64,000 bases of DNA from Biomphalaria pfeifferi (taxonomy: Eukaryota), in assembly GCA_030265305.1 (NCBI GenBank), contig JASAOG010000245.1, positions 105,822 through 169,821 of the forward strand, written 5' to 3'. A program made the translations under genes and the position numbers. This document shows, piece after piece, positions 7,920 to 56,860 of the stretch. The notes beneath the pieces were generated by a model. The model was not told where the DNA came from. It searched no databases and saw nothing but the letters and a program-made list of their open reading frames with translations. Every line of letters begins with the position of its first letter. The stretch's first letter is position 1.

Positions 7920-8186
7920 ATGTATTTGTTATCCCTATGAGAGCTGTGAAAATGTCAACAGAAGTATTTGTTTTTGTTATCCCTATGAGAGCTGTGAAAA
8001 TGTCAACAGAAGTATTTGTTATCCCTATGAGAGCTGTGAAAATGTCAACAGAAATATTTGTTATCCCTATGAGAGCTGTGAAAATGTCAACAGAAGTATT
8101 TGTTATCCCTATGAGAGCTGTGAAAATGTCAACAGAAGTATTTGTTTTTGTTATCCCTATGAGAGCTGTGAAAATGTCACTGTATT
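7920..8186. repeat. Minisatellite, 42-bp unit (48 bp with a tttttg insertion), about 6 copies
   Basis: Unit ttatccctatgagagctgtgaaaatgtcaacagaagtatttg. The track ORF 7937-8188 is an artefact of the repeat. Confidence 0.9.
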
Positions 8187-9894
8187 GACCAGTCTAAAGC
8201 AATACAACTGGAGAAATACAATAACTAAAGATATTGGGTCACACTGACTTAGTTGTCTTTACTGGTTGGTAACTGAAGAAGGTTACATGGGACCAATTTT
8301 AATCCAGGAGGATTTCTTGTTTATTGTATTTCTTTAAATAGTTCTTTGCAACTTGCAGTGGTAACGTTTATATAATTTACTGTCGCTAGTTCCTATATAT
8401 ATCATTAGGTTTGTTGCTTCTTTTTAATATTACAATACTGTAAGCTTAACTCTTTCTCTCCTAATTGACGATACAAATATCAATTTGACTTCATTAAATT
8501 TATTTTTGGTTTTGTGAACATTAATTTGCATTGTGTAAAAAGAGCATGCAATCCTCTTTAATTCTAGACCAAAAAAAAAAAAAAAAAACATTTTCTGATA
8601 ATAAACAAAAAAAATTGAAGTTTAATCATAACAGGGTAGTGAAATACACATGTGCAAAATTAATAATTCCATTGCAACATAGAAAATAATTACGGAGAGA
8701 AAGAGTTAACAATTACAACATTTTTTTTTTAAATTAAATAATGTAAATTTAAGCAGAATTCACAAGAATACAGGAAAAAAGCCTATGTATTATTTCTTGA
8801 TAAAATTAGATGTCTGTTCACACTACAAACATCAATATTAAATGTATTTTACTGATATACCAGTAACATAAAAGACGAAATGTTATCAGTTATACCATTT
8901 TATCCCATGTGGTGATTACCTGGCATATTGCTGTAAGTCGCACAGTACTTATTAATTTGTTTCAAGTTAGAAAACATATTTCTTTATTAGACCAAAATAA
9001 GAATCAAAAATAAAAAATTTGGCTCGAATAATGGCTTGGCTTGAATAATGTTTTAATTTTTTTTTATTTGTACTTTAATCAGTAAATAAACTTACCTAAT
9101 TGAATGTATGTAGTTTGTTTATTTGAAGCTGGGTTAAACCCTCTACAAATAGCTTTGAATGCTTTCAACATGTAGATTGTGTTCAAATCATTGTGGTTCT
9201 AGTAATATGTGTGTGATGTTTGAATGTGCATTTGGTTGATAGGTGTGTGTTGTGTTTCCAGGTAGACTCGTGTTTGTATCCGAGTTTTGAGAGTTTGAAT
9301 AGGAGTTCATCTGTGATCTAATGTTATGATCAATTTTATTCAATAAATTTTTTTTTAAATTGGAATTTGTTTTTGTTTTTTCACTAATTTTAAAAGCTGT
9401 ATTCTACCATTATGTCTTGTAACTTCAAGCCAAAGTTTCCTATTCTCCTCATATGAAATGACACAATATTACCACATTTTGTTCAGAACATTGTTGCTAA
9501 AAAAATGTACCATACTTTATTGTAGTTTACAGCTCAACAAAATAATGACTCGTACATTTAAATATTTATTTATTTTACAATTATTTCTAGTGCATGATTC
9601 TAGGTTTAAATTATTCCCAATTAACTAGTGATAAAATATCTTGACTATGAGCATTCAACTTGACACATGAAATATCCATCTCTTATTAACCATGTTTATT
9701 AATGCTGCTCAGTAAGCTTACACTAAGATGAGGTGAAATGTTTTTCTTTTACTTACTGAATGGTGCATATGCATTTTGTTTTTATTTCAATTTCTTTCTA
9801 CGGTCAGACCTTTTTTTTTTTACAAACGTCTTTGAGAATATTTGTGTTGGTTCCTATTCAAACTCTCATGCTGGCCACATGAAAGCCTACTCGT

Positions 9895-9975
9895 TAACTG
9901 TGGGGCCAAAGAAACAGATGACCTAAACATCACCTGCCCTTTAGATCGCAAGGTCTGAAAAGGGGAACTTAACTT
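9895..9975 (+). mobile_element. Repeat family B, 3'-end fragment
   Basis: The segment ggccaaagaaacagatgacctaaacatcacctgccctttagatcgcaaggtctgaaaagggg matches the family B tail. Confidence 0.55.
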
Positions 9976-10192
9976 TTACATTGGGATTCAAACTTGAGCC
10001 TCTTTGTCAGGTAGCCAAGAGGTTAATGACTCTCAACTCCTTTCCCCCCCCCCCCCCCTTGAAATTTCAACTTACAACAATGAGCTCAAGATATTAGTTT
10101 CCCAGCTTTAGTAATATTCTGATGGACAGTAACACACAGAAGTCATCTACCAGCATCTAATACTAAGAAAAAATAATGGACTTCATATTTTA

Positions 10193-10701
10193 TCATAACT
10201 TTTTTTTATCCGTCCAATAAACAAAAAATTCTGTATCACTAGGAGACAAAAGTACTTGAAATGACCATGGGGAGAGTTGAGTCGTAGTAAAGTCCTCGGG
10301 CTTACAAAGTGTGTCACCAAAGCCAGAGCTACTCTCACAGCTCAATTCATCAACAGCATGGACAATGTTCTGGTTGTATGTTGCTAAGTCTGTTTTGTTC
10401 AAAAGTCTTCCTGCTGGTAAAATGAATTCTGGCCATTTGGTCTTGCCAGCCGAGGTTAATGCTGAACGGGGCAAGGGAGGTAACTGGATGCATGGTTCAG
10501 TGTTTGATTCAGGCAGTGGATGTGAGCTTTTGTGAGACTTGTCACACGACTGCTCTAAGAAGAGAAGTCTGCTGTCTGGGTCTTCGTCAGATATCTGCAG
10601 ATAGCGCCCACCTGGGGCTAACACACGCACCACTTCAGACATCATCAACTGTGTTTTGAGGTGGCCTCGACTTTTATCTTTTAATAGTGCATCCATAGTG
10701 C
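10193..10701 (-). CDS. Same methyltransferase gene, terminal coding exon (stop TGA at 10193-10195)
   Basis: Acceptor ttttttaaattacag, phase-matched so the junction reads ...IIVDKG|TMDALL.... Encodes MMSEVVRVLAPGGRYLQI (post-motif II/III, cf. EEF1AKMT4 VLSEVSRVLVPGGRFISM) followed by a low-complexity C-terminal tail. Confidence 0.7.
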
Positions 10702-10802
10702 CTGTAATTTAAAAAATATGATCAGCATTTTTATTAATTTTCCTTTGGAGGTTTTATTTTCCATGAAACAAACTAAATATAAGATAAGCCAAATAAGACA
10801 AA

Positions 10803-10975
10803 CTAAAAATAAGTGGTGGCTGAGTGGTAAAGTACTTGGCTTCAAAACTGATAGGTCCTGGGGTTGAACTCTGTTGAAGATTAGGATTTTTAATTTCGAG
10901 ATCTTTAGGGTGCCTCAGAGTCAACCCAGCTCTAACGGGTGCCTGACGTTAGTTAAAAGTAAAAAAGTAAAGTTT
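10803..10975 (+). mobile_element. Repeat family B, 5' part
   Basis: tRNA-like head aagtggtggctgagtggtaaag...ggggttgaactc plus body. Confidence 0.65.
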
Positions 10976-11235
10976 ACCTTTTAGACCTTTCGATCTATGG
11001 GGCAGATGATGTTAAGGTCATCTGTTTCTGTGGCCAATGGTTAACGAGCAGGGTGTCATGTGGCCAGCGCAACGACCAACCGCCTTTACTTTCCCCAACT
11101 AAAGTCAGGTACCCATTAGAGTTGGGTGGACTCAGGAGCGCCCTAAAAATCCTGAAATTCAAAATCCCAGTCTTCACAAACATTCGAACCCAGATTCAGA
11201 AGCCGAGCGCTTAACCACTCAGCCACAGCGCCCCT
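10975..11235 (-). mobile_element. Repeat family B, near-full copy (inverted)
   Basis: Reverse complement of the family B consensus. It ends ...agccgagcgcttaaccactcagccacagcgcccc, the head in reverse. Confidence 0.75.
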
Positions 11236-11395
11236 CTGACATTAGTTGGGGAAAAGTAAAGGCAGTTGGTTATTTTGCCGGCCAAATGACACCCTCATTA
11301 ACAATTGGCCACAGAAACAGATGACCTTTACACCATAAGCCCTAAGGATCGGAAGGTCTGAAAGAGGAACTTGAAAACATACAAGACATTTGGTC
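11236..11395 (+). mobile_element. Repeat family B, 3' part, forming an inverted repeat with 10975-11235
   Basis: The segment tgacattagttggggaaaagtaaaggc...ggccacagaaacagatgacc... is the reverse complement of 11000-11125. Confidence 0.7.
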
Positions 11396-12164
11396 TCCTA
11401 AAAAATGTTACAAAATTTTTATCAATGTACTTGTAACACTTGCTACATCATATTTAAGATACACATTTTTTTTTTTCTTTAGAAAAGAGAGATACACAAT
11501 TGAATGCTACCAAGGTAAACAGACCTCAAACTATGTCAGCCAATAAACAAACACATTTTTTTAATTGTCTTGAAAAATTCTAGTCTTCACAACATTTTAA
11601 TAAGATTTATTTCAAGGAAATATGAAACAAAAAAGTTTTCATAGAGCCCACGGGAAATCCATTTTGAGCTCCATGTGATTTTATTTTTGTACGTTATTTG
11701 TTCTTTAATCAAATATTGCTTTCCTAATCCATTTTATTTATCAATCTATTCTTTATTATTATTCTTTATTCTCTATGGCTAATTCTTCTTCCTCTTCGTT
11801 TTAATTTTTTTTTTTTTTTTATGTCTTTATGTCAGAGGGTTCAATTCAGTAATCCTATATAAGACGAACAGCTGTTTCCAAATCAGGCAGTTCTCCATAC
11901 AGTTTTTCTTCTGTGGGAGGGTTTCGGGGCCAATGTCGTGTTTGGGCCTATCATAGAGTACCATATGCAGCTTTGAAGGACATGATGAGCATTCTCAGAA
12001 AAGTTTTGCTAGTTATGGATAATAAATGGTAATATTTCCAACTAATTAATTAATTTAACTATGTATTTGTTTATTTTATATGTTTCTATACATATTTCAG
12101 AAATGAAGATTATTACATTCAAATCTACAACAGGACAGCAGTGTTCGAATGCAAGATCATAGTG

Positions 12165-12225
12165 ACAATAGTGTAGGATATAATGATCTTCAATTCCGAA
12201 CGAACATCCGAAACTTGTAAAACAA
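12165..12225 (+). mobile_element. Repeat family A, 3' 60-bp fragment
   Basis: The segment ...atcttcaattccgaacgaacatccgaaacttgtaaaacaaaaca matches the family A tail. Confidence 0.5.
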
Positions 12226-12270
12226 AACATTCTATTGCAATAGTAGTCAATAAGTTAAAATTTCCATTAC

Positions 12271-12552
12271 CTTTATCTACAATAATATTAAATGTGTCTG
12301 AAGCAATAGGCAATTTCTGAACATCTGCTACAAGGCCCACACAAGTAGATTCTTTCAGCAATGGCTTGCATTCCAACATTTTATTCAATTGGTAATTCAA
12401 AGCTTCTGGTATGAAATCCAGCAGGACTAGTGATGTAGCATGTGGACAGTTCATAAAAACTTTTGAAGACAATTCTGATGTCCCACAGCCCAGGTCTAGG
12501 TATGACAAGATGTTTCCTTTAACTTGTCTCTCTTTGGGCAGCTGAGTGGAAC
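12271..12552 (-). CDS. Same methyltransferase gene, exon with SAM-binding motif I
   Basis: Acceptor cttttttttttctgttaag and donor AAAG|GTAATG, phase-matched to 14286-14435. Encodes (R)STQLPKERQVKGNILSYLDLGCGTSELSSKVF...LVLLDFIPEAL...VGLVADVQKLPIASDTFNIIVDKG. The DLGCGTS glycine-rich motif I and the acidic residue ending beta-2 are present. Confidence 0.75.
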
Positions 12553-12674
12553 CTTAACAGAAAAAAAAAGTTATAATATTTGTGATTTGAAATTGTTATT
12601 ATATAAATGATGTATCACAGAATTTTTTTCATCTGCTTACTAAAAAGTAAAGTTACCCTTTCAGACCATACAGG

Positions 12675-12897
12675 GCAGATGATGTTAATGATGTTAAGGT
12701 TATCTGTTTCTTTGGCCATGGTTAACCAGCAGGGTATCATGTGGCCAGCACAATGAACCAACCACCTTTACTTTCCTAGGTGGACTCTAATAACGCCCTA
12801 AAAATCCCGAAATTCAAAATCCCAGTCTTTACCGAGATTCAAACCCAGGACCTCAAGTTCAGAAGCAATCACTTAACCACTCAGCCACCAAGCCCCC
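12675..12897 (-). mobile_element. Repeat family B copy
   Basis: Matches the family B consensus in reverse. Confidence 0.75.
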
Positions 12898-13349
12898 TTC
12901 ATTTGCTTAAGTACGGTATTGGGGAAATAAAACATAAAAGGAATAGAAATGAAAATTGTAACTTGAATGACACACTAAGTCTTTTTGTAACAAAGTTTCT
13001 AAAAAAATATATAAATAGAAATATATAGAATTGGAAACAGTAACAAAGAACGGTATGATTTCCTGACATGGACTCAACCTGTCTTCCGTCCATCAGAAAC
13101 ACTACTGACGACAAACTGAAGATAGCAGACAACAAATTGTTTGCAGGGAAATAGTGAAAAACAAATTTTAAGCCTTGCCCTACATGCCAGTCTCCCTGAT
13201 TGATGCCAAAACTATTCCAAACTGTAAAAAAAAAATCGGATGTATCCTTTGTCAAATTACTCAAGACAGCACTAACAAATCTCAACAACAGAAACCAAGA
13301 AACTATTCTGAAAAGAATCATAGCACACATACAAATTCAGGAAAAATGG

Positions 13350-13575
13350 TGGGAAGCGTGGTCGAGAGGCTAAGTGCGCTTGAACTTAGCTTGGCTTGGC
13401 TACCTAGACGGGGGCTCGAGGTTCAGAGGTGTGTTTACTGAGCGCCTAAAGGCAGCACGAAAAACAAACTCCTAGATACCCCCTCCCCCCCACTGGTCCA
13501 CAAATGAGATTGGACCAAAGCGCTTTGAGCATGCTATAAGCATGAAAGTAGCGCTATATAAAAGCTATAATATAA
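13350..13575 (+). mobile_element. Repeat family C copy
   Basis: Matches the family C consensus. Confidence 0.7.
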
Positions 13576-14285
13576 AAAATATTAATAAAACCGCTGACAA
13601 ACTGGTGAAAGATGTGGATTGACAAATGAATAAGAAATATCCCTTCATGAAGAAGAGGTGAAGAAGGCCATTACTTCAAACAAACATCCACACAAAAGTG
13701 ATAATTTTTTCTCCTGTAAGCTATTACACAACCACAATAATTTTTTACCTCTGGACAAAATTAGACAATAATGGGTGCCTTTGTTCAGCAACAAAATGTT
13801 GTATATCAATCTGGCCCAATCTGCATCAAAACCATAGATGCAAATAAACCTCTAAAGAAAATAATTCAAGAACAGCCTGAGTTGGAAATCACTGCATAGT
13901 TTTTGTTTTACAAGTTTGGAAGTTCCTTCAGAATGTAAGATTATTACATTCTAGCCCAAGTTTCTCTTCAGGATGGAGGGGGATGGTGGTGGGCAGTGTT
14001 CCAGCCTGGGTCCATCAAGGCACAGTCCAGATAGAACACCACATGCCCAAGCAGCCATCCATATTTGAGATAAAGACTAATTATATGACACTAACTAAAA
14101 TTAATAATAAAAATCAATGAATAGCAAAGATGGGTGCAGTGTTTCACATGACTATGCATACCCAGTTGTGACCTGCACATTTTACCGGATATCAAGCAGA
14201 CAAAGCCATTGTCCACTAGCAGTCTAATATATTATAATAAATTTACTCTTTTCATTATTTACATCAAGCAAGAAAATTAACTTAC

Positions 14286-14435
14286 GTTGAAATACACTTT
14301 CAATGCTCTCTAGCACAGTTCCTAAAACTCTATGTGAATCAAGGAACCAATCAAAACCAATGGCTTGTGATTTCCTTTCATAAAATGCCTTCCAGTATGA
14401 GAATTTAGATAGTTTCTCATCACCATGAAAGGAAC
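14286..14435 (-). CDS. Class-I SAM-dependent methyltransferase (EEF1AKMT4 / METTL13-N-terminal-like), internal exon
   Basis: Minus-strand acceptor tttctttag and donor CAAC|GTAAGT. Encodes SFHGDEKLSKFSYWKAFYERKSQAIGFDWFLDSHRVLGTVLESIESVFQ, matching the Y.EYWD.RY...YDWF pattern N-terminal to motif I in this MTase family. There is no in-frame ATG, so at least one 5' exon lies upstream and was not found. Confidence 0.6.
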
Positions 14436-14929
14436 CTAAAGAAACAGACACATTTATGAAAACAAAATATTTTTACACAGTTTTTTACTATAGTAATAAC
14501 ACTTATTGTAACAATGTCAGTTAAGTTGAGGCTATTTTCTGTTCCATTTTTTGTAGCTCAGTTGTGGCCTAAATCTTTCAGTTTAAAATGTCTAAAATGG
14601 TTTTATTTTTGAAGTAATTAAATAAGTAATCTTCTTGACAGAAACTGAAAGCATCTTCAGTGGCGGCGGACGACCTAAATTTTAGGTGAGCCAAATATAT
14701 TTTTGTTTCTTCAAAAAAAAAAAAGGTCATTTCTCGACAGTGTGCAGATCAAAGCCTGTAAGTATAGTGAAGTTAGAAGGTCGAGATGACTCCATTGAGG
14801 AAACATTTTTTCTTGGTAGACAGTACTTCTCGAATTTATTAAGAATGCAGTGAAGTGTATGGAAGGACTTGCTAATCTCACATTCATTACATTCATTATC
14901 CGTCCATTGGAAAGTGTTATAGACTTGCA

Positions 14930-21146: not shown

Positions 21147-22020
21147 TGAGTGTATTGGAGACACACTGGTGAACTCCATTGTATTGTAGAACAAACTTAA
21201 ATTTTCCCGCTGTCTGTCTGGTGAGAATAGTAAGGATACAATTTATTTATTTTTTTTACAATCATGGAAAACAAAATGTTGACTGTTATTTTCTAATTTT
21301 TAATGTTTTTAGTTTTAGAATTTCCACGTTTGTTTATTAAACTTGTGTTCATTTATTGACATAAAAGTAGTATGTTTAGTTAATAGTAATACTTTTTACT
21401 GCACAATGTAATAGAATGTTGGAAGCTTATTGGTGAAATAATTGTAAAATCTGAAAGTATTAAATCAGTGCTGTTAGTGACTGCAATATTTGCCTAGAGC
21501 TACCTCATGTACCACCAAGTTTCAAATGGAATCATAAGCTAGATGTTACTTTAAGACTCTACCATCTGGGTCCTTAAAACTATTTACGGAAAGTAATTGC
21601 CAGAGGTTTATTAATTTGTCCTTAATAAAGTGGCTGCGTGATTTGAATGATATATAGTTCATGCGCCCACTTACTTCCTAGCAATGTTAAGTATCGTACT
21701 TAAAAAATATAAATATAAGAAGTAAAAATGAAGAAAACTGTGTTTTTTTATAATTATAAATATGTTATTCTAAGTTTAGAATGTTTTTAAAAAAAGGTTA
21801 TAAATTTGATTTCTTTCACTTTATCAATTATGTTTTGTTGTGGTCATAATTTTGTTTATGTATTCCAATTATAATAGACATTACTTTGAATTTCTGTGTT
21901 TTAGATTTAATAAGTTTTTGTTTCCTCTGATGCATTTAGATGTTAGCCTTTATTTTTTATTGCCTTGCAGATAAACTATGTGTATCACTTGCCTGTAGAT
22001 GTACATGTTTGAGTGTATTC

Positions 22021-22160
22021 CTGGGCTAGCCAGGAAAACCAGTGACTTGGCAGAATTTAAGTCATTGGTTATTATGCATGACTAAATACATGACGCGTAG
22101 GACGTAATCATCTTTTTTTGAAGAAAGGTCTGTATTATATAGGATAAGAAGATAAGACTA
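22021..22160 (+). mobile_element. LINE family 1, short 3'-end fragment
   Basis: Shares ...ccaggaaaaccagtgacttggcagaatttaagtcattggtta.tatgcatgactaaat.catgacgcgtaggacgtaatcatc...tctgtattatata.gataag with other copies. Confidence 0.7.
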
Positions 22161-23194: not shown

Positions 23195-23530
23195 GCTTTA
23201 TTAAAAGAAATTTCTGCAAGTCATTGGTTTTCCTGGCTGATTCAGGCAACCCATTCCATGCTCTAATTGCACTAAGGAGCTATCTGATAAGATATGTGCT
23301 TTCATCGTTGTGAATATATTATTAGAATATGTTTTTGCATTTGTAAGTTATGGTTAATTGTTTTATTTATTATAGCTACTTTACTTTTTAAGCTTCTGTC
23401 CTGAAGTGTCTCTAAATTTACTAATGGTGCTACACTAGTCAGAAGTGAATTTTCATTTGTTATAAATCTCACAGCTCAATTTTTGCATCTGTTGCATCAG
23501 TTATATTTGACCTAACTAATATAACTTATT
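23195..23530 (-). mobile_element. LINE family 1, diverged internal/3' fragment
   Basis: The segment ...ggttttcctggctgattcaggcaacccattccatgctctaattgcactaaggag... aligns with 34040-34330 at roughly 80% identity. Confidence 0.55.
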
Positions 23531-33927: not shown

Positions 33928-34745
33928 TATCTTCTTATCTTATATAATACAGACGTTACTTCAAAAAAGAAGATGATTACGTCCTACGCGTCATGCATTT
34001 AGTCATGCATATTAACCAATGACTTAAATTCTGCCAAGTCACTGGTTTTTCTGGCTAGCTCAGGCAACCCATTCCATGCTCTAATAGCACTAGGGAAGAA
34101 GGAGTATTTGTACAAATTTGTCCTAGCATATGGGACGAGGAATGTGCCTTTATTTTTGTGTCTTTCAGAGTATTTTATTAAATTTTGTTTTTGTATTTGA
34201 AGATTATGGTTCAGTGTTTTATGTATAATTGCTACTTTACTTTTGAGTCTTCTGTCCTGAAGGCTTTCTAAATTTAGTGATTTTACTAATGGTGTTACCC
34301 TAGTCAAATGTGAATATTCGTTTGTTATGAATCTCACTGCTCTATTTTGTGTTTGTTCCAGTTTCTTAATATTTTCTTGAGTTGAGGGGTCCCACACGGT
34401 GGATGCATATTCTATTATTGGCCTAACCAAGGTTAAATAACATTTTAGTTTTATGTTCTTATTTGATTTATAGAAATTTCTTTTAATAAACCCTAATGCT
34501 TTGTTGGATTTTTTTATAGTTTCATCAATATGTGGATTCCATGACAGTTTTTCATTTATTATAACACCTAGGTATTTTGAGTTTTTAGTCTGTGTTACTG
34601 CTTTGCCATGAATAAGATAAGTGGAATTAATTTGTTTTAGTTTTTTTGTTACTCTTAACAACTGACATTTTTCTGGGTGGAAAGACATGCTCCAATTTGA
34701 TTCCCATTTCTGTAATTCATCTAATTCTCTTTGTAAAATATCTGT
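33928..34745 (-). mobile_element. Non-LTR retrotransposon (LINE family 1, CR1/L2/RTE-like), 5'-truncated copy carrying the RT C-terminus and a 3' tail ending in (GATAA)n
   Basis: The 229-aa ORF 33999-34688 reads ...SFHPEKCQLLRV...IKRNF...LVRPIIEYASTVWDP...LESLQDRRL...YSFFPSAIRAWNGLP.... The 3' tail ...gtaacgtctgtattatataagataag recurs at eight or more sites. Confidence 0.8.
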
Positions 34746-35575: not shown

Positions 35576-36487
35576 TATATTAATATTTAAGGCACTCATC
35601 AAATCGAGAGCCAAATATAAAAGTCATTCACTGTGAAAACCTCTAACCGTCACGGTCGGTTGACTACGAGCATTTCACCTCCCCCTTTTTTTGTGATCGC
35701 CGGTTTTCGCATTCACGGAGCTAATGAATGGTTCAATCTATCTAGAGGGGTTTCAGGGTGAATAGCACTAATGAATGGTTCCTTATATCCAAAGAGTTTT
35801 GCGTTCACAGTAGTAATGAATGGTTTAAGTTTAATATGGCTGTGGAAAATGTCCATGCACCAAAGAATAGATCAACAATTACAGAGTTTGCAAACCTACA
35901 AACCTCTACCGATAGTTAGAGGAATGCTACTGGCTTTGTTAATTCTGAATTTCTGAGCCACATGTAGCTGTAACTTCGTGTTTCGTGTGCATATTGGACA
36001 TTCCTTTCAGGAGTCATTAGAGCATGATTGCATTGGTACAAATGTAAAAACATAAACTATTAATAGTATTCAGAAAGTCACCAAGATAAATGAACATTTC
36101 TTAATCATAATAATATGGCTAGTCTTCGAGTCCGAAGATTAGTAAAGAATGCAGTATTTTTCCATGACTGCGCAGTCCCAGCTGTGACCTACATATTTAA
36201 TCATATGTTAGGACTAATTCATACAAGTACTCTTTTTATCTTAGTAAAGTTAAAGCATGGAACGGGTTGCTTGAATCAGGCAGGAAAACCAACGATTTAG
36301 CAGATTTTTATATTCTCTAATTAACATGTACAACATAGAAATGTTGGTACGCTAGGGCAGCAACCTTTTTTGTTGTTCTTTTTTCGAAGAAATATCGGGA
36401 TATTATTAGACAAGAATCAGCTTGGAATGCCAAAGCCTTAATAAAGTTAAGATCTCTAATTCATATTAACGATTTCATCATCTGTTT

Positions 36488-37944: not shown

Positions 37945-38039
<95 letters not shown>

Positions 38040-38040
38040 C
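37840..38040. repeat. Compound microsatellite (TA)n(GA)n(CAGA)n(GATA)n
   Basis: Read directly from the sequence. Confidence 0.95.
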
Positions 38041-38139
38041 TGAATTAAGACATTTTTTTAGATTGAAATGTAATAAAACTGAAGAAAAAGAAAGCTATAA
38101 ATACATGTGTAGGCTACAGGCCTATATGATTTATAAATA

Positions 38140-38354: not shown

Positions 38355-39495
38355 AAATAGATGCTGGCTTACTAGATTTTTCTAAGGCATTAGACAAAGT
38401 TCACCACCATAGTTTGCTTAAAAAATTAAAATATGTCGGCATTAATGGTCCATTGCATCAGTGGATTAAAGATTTTTCTGATAGGGAGAGAACAAACTGT
38501 AATAATAAATGGCTCTAAATCAACACCGTAAACTCAGGTATACCTCAAGGAACAGTCTTGGGTCCACTACTATTTTTTATTTACATAAAGGATTTACCAA
38601 ATTGCATTACTTCAGTAACAAAAGTCATTTTATTTGCAGACGATTGCATAATATATAGAACAATAAAAACAACACAAGACACAGATATTTTACAAAGAGA
38701 ATTAGATGAATTACAGAAATGGGAATCAAATTGGAGCATGTCTTTCCACCCAGAAAAATGTCAGTAGTTAAGAGTAACAAAAAAACTAAAACAAATTAAT
38801 TCCACTTATCTTATTCATGGCAAACCAGTAACACAGACTAAAAACGCAGAATATCTAGGTGTTATAATAAATGAAAAACTGTCATGGAATCCACATATTG
38901 ATGAAACTATTAAAAAATCAAACAAAGCATTAGGATTTATTAAAAGAAATTTCTATAAATCAAATAAGAACATAAAACTAAAATGTTATTTAACCTTGGT
39001 TAGGCCAATAATAGAATATGCATCCTTCGTTTGGAACCCCTCAACTCAAGAAAACATTAAGAAACTGGAACAGACACAAAATAGAGCAGTGAGATTCATA
39101 AAAAACGAATATTCACATTCGACTAGAGTAACACCTTTAGTAAAATCACTAAGTTTAGAAAGCCTCCAGGACAGAAGACTCGAAAGTAAAGTAGCAATTA
39201 TACATAAAACACTGAACCATAATCTTCAAATACAAAAACAAAATTTAATTAAATACTCTGAAAGACACAAAGATAAAAGGCACATTCCTCGTCCCACATG
39301 CTAGGACAAATTTGTACAAATACTCCTTCTTCCCTAGTGCTATTAGAGCATGGAATGGGGTTGCCTGAGCTAGCCAGGAAAACCAGTGACTTGGCAGAAT
39401 TTAAGTCATTGGTTAATATGCATGACTAAATGCATGACGCGTAGGACGTAATCATCTTCTGTTTTGAAGTAACGTCTGTATTATATAAGATAAAG
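38355..39495 (+). mobile_element. LINE family 1 copy, 5'-truncated, RT domain with inactivating mutations
   Basis: Translation contains LDFSKAFDKVHHHSLLKKL...SGIPQGTVLGPLLFFIYIKDLP...ILFADDCIIY (the FADD RT active site)...SFHPEKCQ*LRV (a nonsense codon where the 33928 copy has QLL). The same 3' tail ends at about 39495. Confidence 0.8.
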
Positions 39496-41392: not shown

Positions 41393-41925
41393 CCTTATCT
41401 TATCTTATATAATACAGACGTTACTTCAAAACAGAAGATGATTACATATGCATGATATGCATATTAACCAATGACTTAAATTCTGCCAAGTCACTGGTTT
41501 TTCTGGCTAGCTCAGGCAACCCATTCCATGCTCTAATAGCACTAGGGAAGAAGGAGTATTTGTACAAATTTGTCCTAGCATAGGGGACAAGGAATGTGCC
41601 TTTATTTTTGTGTCTTTCAGAGTATTTTATTAAGTTTTGTTTTTGTATTTGAAGATTATGGTTCAGTGTTTTATGTATAATTGCTACTTTACTTTTGAGT
41701 CTTCTTTCCTGAAGGCTTTCTAAATTTAGTGATTTTACTAATGGTGTTACTCTAGTCAAATGTGAATATTCGTTTGTTATGAATCTCACTGCTCTATTTT
41801 GTGTTTGTTCCAGTTTCTTAATGTTTTCTTGAGTTGAGGGGGTCTCAAATGGTGGATGCATATTCTATTATTGGCCTAACCAAGGTTAAATAACATTTTA
41901 GTTTTATGTTCTTATTTGATCCTTT
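41393..41925 (-). mobile_element. LINE family 1 copy, 3' 530 bp
   Basis: ORF 41442-41861 is more than 90% identical to the C-terminus of the 33928 copy. The 3' tail at 41393-41460 is shared. Confidence 0.8.
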
Positions 41926-45079: not shown

Positions 45080-45650
45080 ATGTCGGTTTGGATGGCGTAG
45101 GGCATGAGATTCGCCAATTGGGAAGAAAAAATACTCCACGGAAAATCCCAGCCTTTATTAGATGGCTAAAACATCGACAAGGCTGCTTCCTTGGCATTGC
45201 TCAAAGCAGGTCATCTCTACACTGAAACAGAAGGCTTTGTTACAGCAATACAGGACAGAGTAATTAGGACAAAATTTGTCGACAAGTGCCGAAAATGTGG
45301 AAATGTGGGTGAGTCGATTGAACACATTATGGCAGGATGTCCAGCCTTATCAGAATCAGCCTACCCAGTTCGCCATAACCAAATTGCAAAGCTAATACAC
45401 CAACACTTGTCTTTGACACCCAATTTGATCGGTAAGGATACTCCTTCATATTATAAATACTCACCACAAGAGGTTCTCGAGTCTACTGAAAATCTGCTGT
45501 ACTGGGATAGGCCTATTCTGACCGACAAAACGGTAGATTTCAATCGCCTTGATCTGCTGTTCATCGATAAAAAAAAAAGAAAAAACCGCTACCATTATCG
45601 ATATCGCCTGTGATGTGCTTGTTCAGGCTGTCTTGAGGTCAACTATAGAT
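45080..45650 (+). mobile_element. LINE family 3, 3' fragment of ORF2 (CCHC knuckle plus a 'NRLDLLFIDKKK' tail)
   Basis: ORF 45191-45613 reads ...TEGFVTAIQDRVIRTKFVDKCRKCGNVGESIEHIMAGCPALSESAYPVRHNQIAKLIHQHL...LYWDRPILTDKTVDFNRLDLLFIDKKK.... This motif set is typical of CR1/Jockey-like LINE ORF2 C-termini. A frameshift separates it from the upstream ORF 45043-45225. Confidence 0.6.
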
Positions 45651-46559
45651 GACTGTTGAATTTCAACCAATTACTCTGCAAGCGTTTGAGTTTTATTGTT
45701 CGGGTGTATTCAGTGGAGTTGATCAACAATACAGACTAAACAAGACGATGGATGTAACGAGTCAAGAGATGTGGTCAACACTGAGGAACAGTTCATACTA
45801 GATTTGTTCCAATAAAAGGCCGCAGTAAAAGTCTCTGTCAAAATAAACACGTCTTTACCCTAGAGAATTCTATCGCCAACTGATTTTCCGGTCTCTAACC
45901 CAACATATCCCAAACGTCACTAGTCCCGTTCAATACACGTCATCTACGGTGCGTCGCTAAAAAACTAATACTATAAATAAAGTGTCTAACAGATTTCTCC
46001 CCCCCCCCCCCCCCTTGAAAAAAAAATATGTCAATATTTTTCTACTACTGTCACGTCTTACAAGGGCATTTGCAATTTATGGGGAAGACAACAAACATAA
46101 AATCTTGACATCTTCATCTTGGCTAGACAGTTCATGATGTTCCTGCCAATGTTCATATCATTACACTTTGTATACTTCCAAAGTTCCAAAATCATCTTCA
46201 TTCAATAAAAAGTTCATCATGTGGCATCTCATGGGCACGTCATATCGTATTACCTCTCACAAATGTTCTCCACTGGCAGTAATCTGACAAAATATAATAT
46301 TTCAAAAACAATTATAAACTTTATTTCCACATTCAATAAGCTTTTCCTTACCACCCTTTTATACGCTTTTCGTCCATTTTTCTTTTATACTCACCCTTTT
46401 CCATCGACCTAACTTTTGTCAATGATTTATGAAATGATTCACAAAAATATATCCATACTTACTTTCAAATGCTTAACATCAAATCTACTTATCTCCCTTT
46501 TCCATTAACACATAAATTGTGTCAATATATTAATATATGTATTACATAATAAATATAAT

Positions 46560-48660
46560 CATAGTTTATTTACAAAATTATCTCATTTCATTTCAATGTC
46601 ATACTAGATAACAAATCAGCTACAATATTCACAGATCCACTAATAGCTTTCACTTCAAATTTATATTCCCGTAGTGCTAAGAACCATCTATATAAACGAC
46701 TGTTTTTCATACTCTTTTGTTGTATATACTGAATAGGTTTATGATCAGTTAATAATATGAATTTCCTCCCTATTTAGTAACTCTAGCTTAGTAATTACCC
46801 ATATTAAAGCTAATGCTTCCCGTTCAATGACACTATATTTTTTTTATGCCTCTGATAATTTTCTACTTACATATAATATAGGATGTAAGTTATCATAGTT
46901 CTGCATTAGACAACCACCAATAGCACTACCAGATGCATCAGTTGTGACATAAAATATTTTGTCTTTATCTGGTAGTCTCAATATTAATTCATGACTAAAA
47001 ATATCTTTAATTCTGTCAATAGCTTTCACACATTCCTCATTACAGACTACTTTTTGAGGTTTTCTTTTTTTAAGTAAATCATTTAATGGATTCACTATTT
47101 CTGCTAAGTTCTTTATGAACTTTCTCTAATAATTTACTATTCCTAATATGTTTTTAATTTGTCTTTTTGTTGTAGGTATTTCAATATTAAGTACATTCTT
47201 TATGTCATCTTCAATAGGGCTAATCATGTTGTTATTTACTTTATGTCCTAAGAAAATTATTTCCTCCAATCCTATTTCCACTTTTTCTGCCTGAATTGTA
47301 AGTCCACTTTCTTTTATTATTTTGAACACTTCTTTTACATCTACCAAATGTTCTTCCCAACTATTATTAAAAATACATATGTCATCCAAATAACAAATAA
47401 CATTTTCTTTATTTCCAATTATCATGTTCATCATTCTATTAAATGTGGCTGGTGCATTTACTAACCCAAAACTCATATAATTCCATTGAAAAATACCACA
47501 TGGTGTTACAAATGCTGTGTAAAGTTTTGCATTTTCTGTTAATGGTATTTGCCAATAACCTTTAGTTAAATCCAATTTAGTAAAAAATTTTGCTCCATTT
47601 AATTTATGTAAAATATCCTCTATATTTGGCATTGGATATGGGTCAAATTCTGTGATGTTGTTAAGTTTCCTATAGCCAATACATAACCGTATATCTCCAT
47701 TTTTCTTTTTGGCTATCACAATTGGTGAAGCATAAGGTGATGTTGATGGTTCAATTATACCTGATTCTAGTAAATTGTCTATTTCTTTTTTTACTTTGTC
47801 TTGTAAATGTAAAGGTATTCTATATGGCTTAAGCTTGATAGGTTTTGGATCAGCTACTTTAATGTCATGTTTAATAATATTTGTTTTTCCTGGTATTTTG
47901 GAAAAAATTTCCTTGTATTCCTGTATTATTTTAGTAATATCTTTTGACTTTTCCTTAGTTAAATTATTAAGATTAATCTTTTGCCAAGTTTGATTCTCGT
48001 TTGTTTCTATTACAAGTATTTCCTTAATGTCATTTTCATTGTGATTTTCATTTGTTATTATCATCAAGCACTCTTCTCTCTCTGAAAACCTATTTTCTAT
48101 TTCCTCCTGAATGTTTTGTATCAACTCATCTTCTCTATCATGATACAGTTTCAAATTATTTATGTGATATGTTTTAATTTTCCCATTTATTTCAATATGA
48201 TAATTCACATCACTAATTTGTTTTATCACCTTAAATGGACCTTTCCATTGTTTACCAATCTTATTTTTGAGATCATTTATTAATATTAATACACTGTTTC
48301 CTACTTCTAGTGTTTTTAATTGTCTTTTCTTATTTATATTCTCATGAGCACTTTGTTTGTACTTCTTATTGTTATTATATGCTTGAGTTTATATTTCTTT
48401 CAATTCTGTTGTGATTGTTGTTTCATTGTCCTTATTTAATCTATTCTCATTGTCTATTAGATTTTCTTTGAAAACATCTAATTCATCTCTGGGTTTTCTT
48501 CCATGTATTATTTCATATGGTGAAAATTGTGTTGCTTCATGGATGTTGTTTCTATGAGCAAATAGTACATAGTTAATGTAATGATCCCATTTATTCTGAA
48601 TTATTATTGTCAGTGATCTTTTCAGTGAACCACCATGACGTTCACATAAACCGTTACTCT
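46560..48660 (-). mobile_element. Degenerate internal region of a Ty3/gypsy-type LTR retrotransposon with IN-RT-RNaseH order (Gmr1-like arrangement)
   Basis: Order read 5'->3' on the minus strand. (1) 48660-48230 integrase core/C-terminus: HPESNGLCERHGGSLKR...FSPYEIIHGRKPR...VGNSVLILINDLKNKIGKQWKGPFKVIKQISDVNYHIEING. (2) 48229-47126 RT: ...KLDLTKGYWQIPL...YLDDICIF.... (3) 47095-46600 RNase H: ...TTDASGSAIGGCLMQ...RKLSEA*KKYSVIEREALALIW...DHKPIQYI...RLYRWFLALREYKFEVKAISGSVNIVADLLS. Internal stops are present. The 5' side is truncated at a LINE fragment (48668). Confidence 0.75.
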
Positions 48661-48667
48661 CTGGATT

Positions 48668-48912
48668 CAGTCATGCATATTAACCAATAAATTCTGCTAA
48701 GTCACTGTCTTTCCTGGCTAGCTCAGGCAACCCATTCCATGCTTTTATAGCGCTAGGGAAGAAGGAGCGTTTGTGCAAATTAGTCCTAGCATATGGAACG
48801 AGGAATGTGCCTTTATCTTTGTGTCTTTCTGAGTATTTTATTAGATTTTGTTTTTGTATTTGAAGGTTATGGTTTAGTGTTTTAAATATAATTGCTACTT
48901 TACTTTAGAGCA
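48668..48912 (-). mobile_element. LINE family 1, 3'-region fragment abutting the LTR-element fragment
   Basis: The segment gtcatgcatattaaccaat...ctggctagctcaggcaacccattccatgc... matches 34010-34260. It lacks the terminal (GATAA)n. Confidence 0.7.
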
Positions 48913-49919
48913 GTGGTCTTCAACCTTTTTGGCCTACCGCCGCCTTTTCGAATTTTTTCTTTAAAAAAATCCTCCAGCGCCCCCCTCTAAGAAAAACAGA
49001 TACAAAGAAGCGTGAGAAAGTAAATTTGAAAAAATATCACCTATCTATTAATTTTTATGCTGTCAATAACACTTATCCCGCTTGGAAGACGACCACATGC
49101 CAAAGGCGATTGTTGTGAACTCCTTGGCCTATGACTGACGAGCTTTTAGGAGGACTGAGTTACAGAGGTGCCCCCCCTCCCCCGTGAGCGCTATTAAGAT
49201 TTATTCAGGCGCCATTTCGCTCTCACTGGCATAGCAGAAAGTACCTGGCAGCATTATCTGGCAGCAGTTAGCCTCTGAGAGAAACAGTTCGAGAGCTCTT
49301 ACAAAAACTGCGGAACAAACATTTGATACTCAAAGAAAAGCCAGCCTACAACGGTTATGTCTGCATAAACTTCGGGAAAATATGTAGGTCGCAGTTGGGT
49401 TTGCTTAGTTCTGTGAAACACTGGACTCAGAGGTATCTTCGGAATTAAAGGCAAAAACAGCCAATACTATCATTCTGCAAAAATTATGTCAAATAATTTG
49501 CAGTGATTACACACAAAAATTAATTGTAAAGACTTTCTTTCAAATCCTAAGAATAGTCTCCGTTTAAATTTTTGAATATTAGGGCCTACTGTTTTTAGGT
49601 TTAATTGTAAATTTAGTTTTATTTTTTAATATACACATTATTATTGCTGAATTCAGTACAAAAAGAAATCAAGCTAATGGGAACCTTGTGCTTCCTGCAG
49701 TCTGACAATATTAGAAATTTCAAACTTTAAATTAGCCAAAGCAAAGCGAAGGTCTCCTCTAGTGCCTACATCCAGTCTTTTTCTTTGCTTATTCATTAAC
49801 TTTGTTAAGCACTAAATCTAGGTTATGTTTACTGAAAAGCTAAAACATAATTCCAATGTCGACCAAAGTTTTGGAATTCTACTTAAACATTTAAATACAG
49901 CCACATCTCTGTTGTGCCT

Positions 49920-50249: not shown

Positions 50250-50425
50250 TGGATGGCTGCCTGGTCGTGCGGTTTGCGCGCTGGATTGTCGTTCAGATTT
50301 ATCGGTGGTCCAGGGTTCAAACCCTGCCCGCTCCCATCCCCCGTCGTCCTGCGGGAGGTTTGGACTAGGAAGTAATTATCTTCAACTCTGAAGGAACATC
50401 CGAAACATTTAAAACAAACAAAACA
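50250..50425 (+). mobile_element. Repeat family A copy
   Basis: Matches the family A consensus. Confidence 0.75.
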
Positions 50426-53545: not shown

Positions 53546-53577
53546 AGTGGTCATCATCGAACCTCGATGGACGAACT

Positions 53578-53593
53578 ATATATATATATATAT

Positions 53594-53640
<47 letters not shown>

Positions 53641-53656
53641 TAGATATATATATACA
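53578..53656. repeat. (TA)n(GATA)n microsatellite forming the 3' tail of LINE family 2
   Basis: Read directly. It sits immediately after the ORF2 stop of the 52830-53545 copy. Confidence 0.9.
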
Positions 53657-53849
53657 CAATATCTCTTTACTTATAGCAAAATACGGAAAACACTCTAGGT
53701 AAAACATTCATTTTATCAGCCGTTGTAGTTGTAAAACCTGTTCTACACAAACCTACATCTGATAGTATTAAAAGAATTTCTTTAAGCAACAATACAGTTC
53801 AAAGGAACATCGGTGGTATTGTCCTTCAAACTATTCACTTTACCAAGAG

Positions 53850-53945
53850 GCCATTGGTTAATATGCATGACTGAATGCATCACGCGTACGACGTAATCAT
53901 CTTCTTTTTTGAAGTAACGTCTGTATAATATAAGATAAGATAAGA
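53850..53945 (+). mobile_element. LINE family 1, 3'-end fragment
   Basis: Shared tail ...ccattggttaatatgcatgactgaatgcatcacgcgtacgacgtaatcatc...ctgtataatataagataagataag. Confidence 0.7.
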
Positions 53946-54582: not shown

Positions 54583-54752
54583 GGAGGGATGTCTGGTCGT
54601 GCGGTATTCGCACTGGACTGTCGTTCGGTCGTCCGGATGGTTCCGGGTTCATACCCAGCCACCTGAGCCTGCTGCCATCCCGCGTCGTTCTGCAGGAGGT
54701 TTGAATTAGGAAGTAACTTATCTTCAACTCTGAAGTAGCACCCGAAACATGT
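54583..54752 (+). mobile_element. Repeat family A copy, inside the last intron of globin-like copy A
   Basis: Matches the family A consensus. Confidence 0.7.
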
Positions 54753-56099: not shown

Positions 56100-56860
56100 A
56101 ATTGATTATTTTAGTTTATTGATTCATGTTTTGTTAGGTACAATAAAAAATTGTTTAAATTATCAACTTGATCGGAGAATGCGTGAGGGAGAAATAGCGT
56201 TAACAATTATTTAATGGGACTAAGCCCAACAAATTTAGCCAGATCTGTGAATACTGAAGTTTCCCTTGTTGCTATTAAACAAAATAATGCACTACCAGTA
56301 TTTAATTGTCTAACTGGCTACTTTTGTTTGTATTGATTCATGTCTTGTCTATGTCAATGAATAATTGTGCAAAGTGATTCATGTCTTGTCTATGTCAATG
56401 AATAATTGTGCCAAGTGATTCATGTCTTGTCTATGTCAATGAATAATTGTGCGAAGTGATTCATGTCTTGTCTATGTCAATGAATAATTGTGCGAAGTGA
56501 TTCATGTCTTGTCTATGTCAATGAATAATTGTGCGAAGTGACTCATGTCTTGTCTATGTCAATGAATAATTGTGCGAAGTGATTCATGTCTTGTCTATGT
56601 CAATGAATAATTGTGCCAAGTGATTCATGTCTTGTCTATGTCAATGAATAGTTGTGCCAAGTGATTCATGTCTTGTCTATGTCAATGAATAATTGTGCCA
56701 AGTGATTCATGTCTTGTCTATGTCAATGAATAATTGTGCGAAGTGATTCATGTCTTGTCTATGTCAATGAATAATTTGCGAAGACTCAGCTTGATCTGAG
56801 AACGGGTGTGAGAGAAATAACATGTACACACTTTTTACCAGACAGACAGACAGGTTTTTT
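56100..56860 (+). mobile_element. Repeat family D element whose 5' 41 bp has been tandemly amplified 11 times
   Basis: The family D consensus is ...ttgattcatgt.ttgt..aggtacaat.aataattgtgcgaagt..cagcttgatc.gagaa.gggtgtgagagaaataacatgt.caaactttttaccagacagacagac.g.gtgagttgatacaagctttgtaaaaa. In this copy the 5' unit gattcatgtcttgtctatgtcaatgaataattgtgcgaagt is repeated 11 times (56334-56787) before the element continues (cagcttgatctgagaacgggtgtgagagaaataacatgtacacactttttaccagacagacagacag). Confidence 0.65.
56334..56787. repeat. Tandem array, 41-bp unit, 11 copies, derived from the 5' end of a family D element
   Basis: Unit gattcatgtcttgtctatgtcaatgaataattgtgcgaagt, with c/g variation at the gcgaagt/gccaagt position. 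Confidence 0.9.

What the first reader, a model, noticed from the sequence alone, without database searches (positions are those of the whole stretch)
46560..48660. Gypsy-type LTR retroelement fragment with integrase upstream of RT (Gmr1-like domain order)
On the minus strand the integrase core/C-terminus (HPESNGLCERH..., FSPYEIIHGRKPR, GPFKVIKQISDVNYHIEING) runs directly and in frame into the RT (KLDLTKGYWQIPL, YLDD) and RNase H (TDASGSAIGG, DHKPIQYI..., ADLLS). After RNase H the coding sequence simply ends. Canonical Ty3/gypsy elements have PR-RT-RH-IN. IN-RT-RH with a gypsy-type RT is the hallmark of the rare Gmr1-like lineage reported from fish and marine invertebrates. The copy is decayed (stops present) and truncated by a LINE fragment at 48668, so its LTRs cannot be defined.
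Basis: partly seen in the sequence, partly recalled or inferred. Interest (0 to 1): 0.5.

Follow-up and report, generated by a model that had tools for sequence, protein, structure and literature searches.

The report
Dead Gmr1-like snail retrotransposon fragment
This is the broken 3' half of an ordinary jumping gene (a Ty3/gypsy-type LTR retrotransposon of the Gmr1-like kind, whose integrase lies before its reverse transcriptase) in what is almost certainly a Biomphalaria snail genome; the unusual gene order is real, but it is a known and widespread arrangement.

Summary
On the minus strand one reading frame runs from the integrase (IN) C-terminus (48664) through reverse transcriptase (RT) to RNase H (RH; stop codon 46588-46590). 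It carries three in-frame stops and one 2-bp frameshift.

A full-length copy in Biomphalaria glabrata (L001:7266-15525, 8260 bp, 364-bp LTRs 99.7% identical, 4-bp target-site duplication) is collinear with the window at about 92% identity. There is no identity break at the IN/RT boundary, so the two halves belong to one element. That copy reads gag-PR-IN-RT-RH.

The window remnant is larger than reported: 45609-48664. It includes a polypurine tract and a complete 383-bp 3' LTR (45609-45991), so one LTR can be defined.

The 5' 5.2 kb is absent from the window. The break at 48664/48665 abuts a dispersed repeat that has itself lost its 3' tail, which suggests a deletion or rearrangement rather than a clean LINE insertion.

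More than 100 homologues from molluscs, echinoderms, shrimp and sturgeon align end to end in the same IN-RT-RH order. The RT is Ty3-like. The family's gag is homologous to SCAN-bearing gags of related IN-first elements.

Verdict: an ordinary, dead member of the known Gmr1-like lineage. Low interest.

The parts
48140..48664 (-). Integrase C-terminal part. It runs from the last catalytic motif (PESNGLCER, carrying the E of the DD35E triad) to the SH3-like C-terminal domain (48140-48268). It contains an in-frame TAA at 48389-48391 and a 9-bp deletion near 48592 relative to L001.
   Evidence: Integrase_p58_C E 1.5e-7; SH3_Tf2-1; 93% identity to B. glabrata P0003 aa 820-1132.
47711..48139 (-). Acidic, Asn-rich linker between IN and RT. 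It is in the same reading frame and has no stop codon.
   Evidence: (ORF 47126-48229). Collinear with L001 at 94-95% identity.
47237..47710 (-). Reverse transcriptase core (RVT_1), including the YLDD motif.
   Evidence: E 1.6e-34; best solved relative is Ty3 RT/RNase H 4OL8, E 3.5e-80.
46591..47236 (-). RT thumb/connection and RNase H (RT_RNaseH_2 and RT_RNaseH, about 46663-47041). It carries in-frame stops at 47126-47128 and 46844-46846 and a 2-bp frameshift deletion near 46784. The pol stop codon follows at 46588-46590.
45992..46590 (-). pol stop codon (46588-46590) and 3' untranslated region, ending in the polypurine tract (about 45995-46016, AAG(16)AGAAA) just upstream of the LTR.
   Evidence: Aligns with L001:14545-15161, where the tract AAGGGGGGGAGGAA sits in the same place.
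45609..45991 (-). Complete 3' LTR, 383 bp, with TG...CA ends. It is about 80% identical to both LTRs of the full-length B. glabrata copy and carries a 24-bp insertion near 45667.
   Evidence: matches both L001:7262-7598 and L001:15158-15494.
48665..48910 (-). Flanking dispersed repeat ('repeat B'), not part of the element. It has at least 6 copies in the window. This copy has lost about the last 57 nt plus the (GATAA)n tail at the junction.
45191..45608 (+). Flanking LINE-like ORF fragment, not part of the element. It is cut off exactly at the outer end of the 3' LTR and is the likely original insertion target.
   Evidence: That it is a LINE C-terminus is my inference from the CxxC...HxxxxC and ...IIDIA motifs.

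Best explanation
Window 45609-48664 (minus strand) is the dead 3' half of a Gmr1-like Ty3/gypsy LTR retrotransposon family of Biomphalaria. Intact members encode one gag-PR-IN-RT-RH polyprotein between 364-bp LTRs. By analogy with all LTR retrotransposons, they copy themselves as follows: transcription from the 5' LTR, tRNA-primed reverse transcription inside a gag particle, plus-strand priming at the polypurine tract, and integration by IN with a 4-bp target duplication.

This copy inserted into a LINE-like sequence. It later lost its 5' LTR, leader, gag, PR and most of IN through a deletion or rearrangement that joined it to an unrelated repeat. It also accumulated three stop codons and a frameshift. 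It therefore cannot transpose or make a functional protein.

Shown here: domain order, membership of both halves in one element, the 3' LTR and polypurine tract, the truncation and the disabling mutations. Inferred: the replication mechanism, the insertion target and the deletion origin of the junction.
For: - Domain order IN(C-term)-RT-RH in one frame.
- Full-length reference copy L001:7266-15525 with 364-bp LTRs 99.7% identical, TG..CA ends, AAAC target duplication, a candidate primer-binding site (TGGCGACCCCGAACC) 1 nt after the 5' LTR, a polypurine tract, and gag (CCHC)-PR (DSG)-IN (H2C2, rve, SH3)-RT-RH.
- The window is collinear with L001:12458-15525 at 92% overall identity, with no identity break at the IN/RT junction.
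- No other piece of the element is in the window.
- More than 100 homologues cover 99% of the query. All ten scanned with Pfam have IN or IN C-terminal domains upstream of RT, or no IN domain at all; none has IN downstream of RT.
- RT-RH is closest to Ty3 among solved structures.
- In a neighbour-joining tree the IN-first sequences, including the window, separate from Ty3 plus a canonical-order annelid Gypsy in 174 of 200 bootstraps.
- The family's gag is homologous to a SCAN-bearing gag (BLASTP 93.6 bits; hhalign probability 99.2%). Relatives of that protein are roughly 1500-aa SCAN-IN-RT-RH polyproteins from coral, gastropods, Saccoglossus and Ciona.
Against: - The type sequences (Gmr1 of Gadus morhua, rGmr1, Osvaldo, Mag and others) were not available, so placement in the Gmr1 clade rests on proxies: shared domain order, end-to-end homology to deuterostome IN-first elements, and the gag/SCAN link.
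- Pfam SCAN and solved SCAN structures do not hit the snail gag directly.
- The first neighbour-joining tree, which included partial outgroup sequences, gave only 47% support for the split.
- Gag, PR and the 5' LTR are known only from the related copy, not from this window.
Confidence: 0.9

Rival explanations
1. Chance juxtaposition. The IN piece (48230-48664) belongs to a different, canonical gypsy element that happens to abut an RT-RH fragment through nested insertion or deletion.
For: The window is full of nested and truncated repeats, and the copy is broken at 48664.
Against: The same IN-linker-RT junction is present in an independent full-length B. glabrata copy flanked by near-identical LTRs. 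Identity is 93-95% on both sides of the junction with no break. The junction lies inside an uninterrupted 367-codon ORF. More than 100 proteins from other phyla align across it.
Confidence: 0.01
2. A Ty1/copia-type element, in which IN-RT-RH is the normal order, rather than a gypsy-type element.
For: The domain order is the copia order.
Against: RT matches Pfam RVT_1 (not RVT_2) and RNase H matches RT_RNaseH/RT_RNaseH_2. The best solved relative is Ty3 RT/RNase H at E 3.5e-80. IN in the full copy has the gypsy-type Integrase_H2C2 and SH3_Tf2-1/Integrase_p58_C domains.
Confidence: 0.01
3. An independent, convergent IN translocation in a mollusc gypsy lineage unrelated to the Gmr1 clade proper, so Gmr1-like in layout but not by descent.
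For: No Gmr1 type sequence could be included in a tree. A survey of 989 mollusc Gypsy elements assigned none to the Gmr1 clade (PMC6238403; remark in PMC8556966). The snail gag gives no direct Pfam SCAN hit.
Against: Alignments at 34-46% identity across IN, linker, RT and RH reach IN-first proteins of sturgeon, sea urchins, starfish, sea cucumber and shrimp; shrimp and prawns are a group with published Gmr1-like elements (PMC3587641). All 114 IN-first sequences form one group in the neighbour-joining tree. Gag is homologous to SCAN-bearing gags whose relatives include Ciona and Saccoglossus proteins.
Confidence: 0.07
4. A domesticated host gene derived from a retrotransposon pol.
For: RefSeq annotates the related B. 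glabrata copy as a protein-coding locus (LOC129925669).
Against: The window copy has three stops and a frameshift, retains an LTR and polypurine tract, and lacks a start codon and promoter. The annotated locus is itself an LTR-flanked, intronless element with a frameshift.
Confidence: 0.01

Closest known systems
Gmr1-like Ty3/gypsy retrotransposons (Gmr1 of Gadus morhua, rGmr1 of Danio rerio; Goodwin & Poulter 2002, as cited in PMC6238403 and PMC3587641)
   Same: Gypsy-type RT/RNase H and IN, with IN placed upstream of RT (PR-IN-RT-RH). LTR-bounded. The gag is related to SCAN-like capsid C-terminal domains through an intermediate homologue.
   Different: The host is a freshwater pulmonate snail. 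Gag is too diverged for a direct Pfam SCAN hit. The full-length copy has an unusually long leader of about 2.4 kb between the 5' LTR and gag. Direct sequence comparison with Gmr1 itself was not possible.
IN-first, SCAN-gag polyproteins in other invertebrates (e.g. Littorina saxatilis V1264_006302, Pomacea canaliculata LOC112577326, Babylonia areolata LOC143274949, Ciona intestinalis zf(cchc)-26, Oculina patagonica)
   Same: A single polyprotein of roughly 1400-1500 aa reading gag(SCAN, CCHC)-PR-IN-RT-RH. P0031 of this group is 37% identical to the window over 99% of the pol query.
   Different: These belong to a different subfamily. The window's nearest non-Biomphalaria relatives are unnamed environmental sequences (P0001 46%, P0002 42%).
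Ty3 of Saccharomyces cerevisiae (PDB 4OL8, 7Q5B)
   Same: Closest solved RT/RNase H (E 3.5e-80, alignment over 424 residues).
   Different: Ty3 has the canonical PR-RT-RH-IN order.
Ty1/copia elements
   Same: IN-RT-RH order.
   Different: Unrelated RT (RVT_2), RNase H and IN C-terminal families. Copia-specific domains were not found here.

Membership tests
Ty3/gypsy (Metaviridae) LTR retrotransposons | RT and RNase H of the Ty3/gypsy type | tested here: met
   RVT_1, RT_RNaseH and RT_RNaseH_2. The best PDB hit is Ty3 RT/RNase H 4OL8, E 3.5e-80, ahead of caulimovirus, foamy virus, MLV and HIV.
Ty3/gypsy (Metaviridae) LTR retrotransposons | Long terminal repeats with TG...CA ends, primer-binding site, polypurine tract and short target-site duplication | tested here: met
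   In the window: 3' LTR at 45609-45991 with TG..CA ends, plus the polypurine tract. In the full copy L001: two 364-bp LTRs 99.7% identical, AAAC duplication, and a primer-binding-site-like TGGCGACCCCGAACC. The 5' LTR, primer-binding site and target duplication of the window copy are lost.
Gmr1-like clade | Integrase domain upstream of RT within pol (PR-IN-RT-RH) | tested here: met
   In the window the IN C-terminus, RT and RH follow one another in one frame. L001/P0003 reads CCHC - DSG protease motif - Integrase_H2C2 649-706 - rve 722-820 - SH3 955-994 - RT.
Gmr1-like clade | RT/RH (and IN) phylogeny groups with Gmr1/rGmr1 within Ty3/gypsy | tested here: inconclusive
   Gmr1, rGmr1 and Osvaldo sequences were not obtainable. 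As a proxy, 114 IN-first sequences including the window separate from Ty3 plus a canonical-order annelid Gypsy in 174 of 200 neighbour-joining bootstraps. Support was only 47% when partial outgroups were included. IN-first homologues come from sturgeon, echinoderms and Penaeus.
Gmr1-like clade | Gag capsid C-terminal domain homologous to the SCAN domain (SCAN-PR-IN-RT/RH; bioRxiv 10.1101/2025.03.03.638093) | tested here: inconclusive
   There is no direct Pfam SCAN hit on the B. glabrata gag even at E<=10, and no SCAN structure was hit by a gag profile. However, the gag is homologous to the gag of P0031 over its Pfam SCAN region aa 223-311 (at 93.6 bits, 47 at 99.2% hhalign probability). Gag is absent from the window copy itself.
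Ty1/copia | RVT_2-type RT and copia-type IN | tested here: not met
   Only RVT_1 and gypsy-type IN domains were found.

The most novel reading that the evidence does not exclude
This Biomphalaria family, with near-identical LTRs in the L001 copy and related gag families at 62-68% identity in B. glabrata, may represent a recently active freshwater-gastropod branch of the Gmr1-like lineage that mollusc transposon surveys have not recognised as Gmr1-like. PMC6238403 assigned none of 989 mollusc Gypsy elements to the Gmr1 clade. If so, IN-first gypsy elements are under-counted in molluscs, perhaps because annotation pipelines expect the canonical order.
Probability: 0.4. Interest if true: 0.2.

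Novelty: new member of a known kind. Interest (0 to 1): 0.12.

Why it matters
It matters little beyond repeat annotation. The copy is a dead fragment of a retrotransposon lineage known since 2002.

The modest value lies in three points:
- IN-first (Gmr1-like) gypsy elements are abundant in gastropods, including the schistosome vector Biomphalaria.
- At least one near-intact, very young copy exists in B. glabrata (L001).
- Domain-order-based classifiers could misfile such elements as copia or as chimeras.

Tried and rejected
- Looked for the missing 5' half (LTR, gag, PR, IN N-terminus) elsewhere in the window by tblastn and blastn. Nothing was found.
- Looked for LTRs by self-comparison of 38-58 kb. 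None were found, because only one LTR is left.
- Tried to obtain Gmr1, Osvaldo and other reference sequences from paper supplements. Only unnamed canonical-order annelid Gypsy sequences were usable. The mollusc paper supplies names and a figure, not sequences.
- Searched for distant homologues of the snail gag. Only B. glabrata proteins came back.
- Tried a direct SCAN link by lenient Pfam search and by a gag profile against PDB. Both were negative.
- Searched with P0031 hoping for named Gadus or Danio proteins. It returned coral, gastropod, hemichordate, tunicate and isopod proteins instead, so P0031 is probably cnidarian, not vertebrate.
- ARAGORN found no tRNA gene in the window that could identify the primer tRNA.
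- The first neighbour-joining tree, with partial outgroups, gave weak support of 47%. It was repeated with full-length outgroups only.

Full report
**Observation**

Translating the minus strand of 46300-49400 in three frames shows one frame running from about 48670 to 46770. It carries, in order:
- the end of an integrase (IN) core (NPESNGLCERHGG, then FSPYEIIHGRKPR);
- an SH3-like integrase C-terminus (GPFKVIKQISDVNYHIEING);
- a roughly 140-residue acidic, Asn-rich linker;
- a reverse transcriptase (RT; KLDLTKGYWQIPL, YLDD);
- an RNase H (RH; TDASGSAIGG).

After a frame shift the RNase H continues (LTDHKPIQYI ... ADLLSSMTLK) to a stop codon at 46588-46590.

A 367-codon uninterrupted ORF (47126-48229) spans the integrase SH3 domain, the linker and the RT core.

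Pfam on the reconstructed 695-residue product gives:
- Integrase_p58_C / SH3_Tf2-1 at residues 135-177;
- RVT_1 at 321-478 (E 1.6e-34);
- RT_RNaseH_2 / RT_RNaseH at 544-671 (E 1e-25 to 1e-28).

Disabling changes are TAA at 48389-48391, TAG at 47126-47128, TAA at 46844-46846 and a 2-bp deletion near 46784.

The only inaccuracy among the quoted motifs is 'HPESNG'. The sequence reads NPESNG, because the codon before P is made of bases from the neighbouring repeat.

**One element or two**

A search of the large protein collection returned more than 100 proteins that cover 99% of the query, that is, from the integrase C-terminus through RNase H.

One hit is 93% identical: B. glabrata LOC129925669 (P0003). 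I fetched its locus, L001 (OX365776.1:24660439-24683852). It holds a full-length element at L001:7266-15525 (8260 bp):
- Two 364-bp LTRs are 99.7% identical, with TG...CA ends and an AAAC target duplication on both sides.
- A primer-binding-site-like TGGCGACCCCGAACC lies one base after the 5' LTR.
- A polypurine tract AAGGGGGGGAGGAA lies just before the 3' LTR.
- Its coding region is one ORF split by a single 1-bp deletion (10001-13414 and 13411-14544).

The ORF reads:
- gag with a CCHC knuckle;
- a DSG protease motif;
- Integrase_H2C2 (aa 649-706), rve (722-820) and SH3 (955-994);
- then RT and RNase H.

The window aligns collinearly with L001:12458-15525. In 200-column slices, identity is 92.7, 94.5, 95.0, 94.0, 93.5 and 97.5% across the integrase, linker and RT. 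There is no identity break at about 48230.

**True extent**

The same alignment shows that the remnant does not end at the RNase H. After the pol stop codon come about 570 bp of untranslated sequence, a G-rich polypurine tract (about 45995-46016) and a complete 3' LTR (minus strand 45991 to 45609, 383 bp, TGTTAGAC...ACATCACA). The LTR matches both LTRs of L001 at about 80% identity.

The statement that 'the coding sequence simply ends' after RNase H is correct, and it is what an IN-first element should do. The statement that the LTRs cannot be defined is wrong for the 3' LTR.

The outer LTR end (45609) abuts a plus-strand ORF (45191-45613). That ORF looks like the C-terminus of a LINE ORF2 and, in a shifted frame, ends '...KTATIIDIA' exactly at 45608. 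This is probably the original insertion target, though the LINE assignment is my inference from the motifs.

**The 5' break**

Homology to L001 starts at 48664. The 5.2 kb that should precede it (5' LTR, leader, gag, PR, integrase zinc finger and the two catalytic aspartates) is found nowhere in the window, either by tblastn or by blastn.

From 48665 upward lies a dispersed repeat with at least six other copies in the window, including 33994-34247, 39179-39434 and 41457-41699. Aligning the copies shows that the one at the junction stops at '...CATGACTGAAT'. It lacks the last roughly 57 nt and the (GATAA)n tail that the other copies carry.

Both partners are therefore truncated at the junction. 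That fits a deletion or illegitimate recombination better than the clean insertion of a 5'-truncated LINE.

**What kind of element**

- RT-RH is closest to Ty3 RT/RNase H among solved structures (4OL8, E 3.5e-80). Caulimovirus, foamy virus, MLV and HIV follow.
- Pfam assigns RVT_1, not the copia RVT_2. The RT is gypsy-type.
- Of ten homologues scanned with Pfam, seven have Integrase_H2C2 and/or rve followed by RVT_1 and RNase H. One has Integrase_H2C2 and the integrase C-terminal domain before RT. Two show no integrase domain. None has integrase downstream of RT. The named ones come from Pinctada, Patiria, Acipenser, Holothuria and Penaeus.
- A neighbour-joining tree of the RT-RH region (437 columns) puts Ty3 and all canonical-order annelid Gypsy sequences (taken from the supplement of PMC8556966) outside a single group of 114 IN-first sequences. 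The window nests deep inside that group, next to L001.
- Bootstrap support for that split was 47% with partial outgroup sequences. It rose to 174/200 with only the two full-length outgroups.

**Independent evidence from gag**

Vertebrate Gmr1-like elements are described as SCAN(capsid C-terminal domain)-PR-IN-RT/RH (bioRxiv 10.1101/2025.03.03.638093).

- One of the window's homologues, P0031 (37% identity over 99% of the query), has a Pfam SCAN domain at residues 223-311 and a CCHC knuckle.
- The gag of the Biomphalaria family aligns with the P0031 gag across that region (BLASTP 93.6 bits; hhalign probability 99.2% over 211 columns).
- Relatives of P0031 are roughly 1400-1550-residue proteins, most of which carry SCAN, rve, RVT_1 and RNase H. 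They come from a coral (Oculina), gastropods (Littorina, Pomacea, Babylonia), Saccoglossus, Ciona and an isopod.

The link is indirect. Neither a lenient Pfam search nor a gag profile against PDB hits SCAN directly, and a search with the snail gag found only B. glabrata proteins.

**Comparison with the literature**

- Gmr1 is defined as the unusual Gypsy clade with integrase upstream of RT (PMC6238403; PMC8220671).
- It was first described in deuterostomes.
- The first protostome members were reported from crustaceans in 2013 (PMC3587641).
- It has since been reported from an annelid (PMC8220671) and, as a combined Gmr1/Osvaldo cluster, from a flatworm (PMC12801592).
- It is listed among the few Gypsy clades present in several phyla (PMC8556966).
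- The mollusc survey PMC6238403 assigned none of its elements to the Gmr1 clade.

The Biomphalaria family may therefore not have been labelled Gmr1-like in print. I could not check Repbase or Dfam.

**Mechanism**

By analogy with all LTR retrotransposons (established knowledge, not tested here), intact members replicate in four steps:
1. transcription from the 5' LTR;
2. tRNA-primed minus-strand synthesis inside a gag particle;
3. plus-strand priming at the polypurine tract;
4. integration by IN.

The 4-bp duplication flanking L001 is the footprint of that last step.

The window copy lacks a promoter LTR, primer-binding site, gag, PR and the catalytic aspartates of IN. It also has three stops and a frameshift. 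It is an immobile relic, about 8% diverged from the young L001 copy in aligned positions.

**Verdict**

The thing is ordinary: a dead, 5'-deleted copy of a Gmr1-like Ty3/gypsy retrotransposon in a Biomphalaria-like genome. The lineage is neither rare nor confined to marine animals.

The residual uncertainty is whether a formal tree with the Gmr1 type sequences would place this family inside the Gmr1 clade proper, as I expect (about 0.9), or show an independent translocation of IN.

Noticed in passing
L001:7266-15525 (B. glabrata OX365776.1): A full-length copy of the same family has LTRs 99.7% identical and only one 1-bp frameshift in a roughly 1510-codon gag-PR-IN-RT-RH frame, which suggests very recent activity. 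It also has an unusually long leader of about 2.4 kb (7630-10000) between the 5' LTR and the gag start, containing short tandem repeats (8495-8676).
   Followed up: partly
window 38959-39493 and 41394-41920: Two copies of about 530 bp of the same dispersed repeat that abuts the element ('repeat B', ending in a (GATAA)n tail) lie in inverted, tail-to-tail orientation 1.9 kb apart. They are 94-100% complementary to each other, much more alike than either is to the other copies (about 89%). This looks like an inverted duplication or a composite element.
   Followed up: no
window 33994-34247, 39179-39434, 41457-41699, 48665-48910, 23199-23387, 22020-22090, 36202-36308, 53853-53944: Repeat B is a high-copy interspersed repeat. 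Its conceptual translation (…RTNLHKRSFFPSAIKAWNGLPELA…) resembles the extreme C-terminus of a LINE ORF2 followed by a short 3' UTR and a (GATAA)n tail. It may be a LINE 3' end or a SINE derived from one. The family was not identified.
   Followed up: partly
window 45191-45613 (+): A 140-codon ORF has a CxxC...HxxxxC motif and a '...NRLDLLFIDKKK...IIDIA' ending, typical in my experience of invertebrate LINE ORF2 C-termini. It is cut exactly at the outer end of the 3' LTR (45608/45609). No other copy is in the window.
   Followed up: partly
window 56242-56858: A minisatellite of 41-bp units, about 15 copies, with the central copies 95-97% identical.
   Followed up: no
window 50251-50328 and 54583-54660: Two 78-bp segments are 76% identical and have a tRNA-like look (…GGTTCAAACCC…). 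They may be heads of a tRNA-derived SINE. ARAGORN calls no tRNA anywhere in the window.
   Followed up: no
window 38000-38047 and 53571-53658: (TAGA)n microsatellites. The window as a whole is AT-rich (GC 29-42%) and made largely of interspersed repeats, several of which are shared with the B. glabrata locus L001 at 70-89% identity. This fits a Biomphalaria origin for the window.
   Followed up: partly
P0121-P0124 (B. glabrata UniRef entries): Gag proteins 61-68% identical to this family's gag (P0121, P0122 and P0124; P0123 is about 90%, i.e. the same family) exist in B. glabrata, so the snail carries several related IN-first families rather than one.
   Followed up: no
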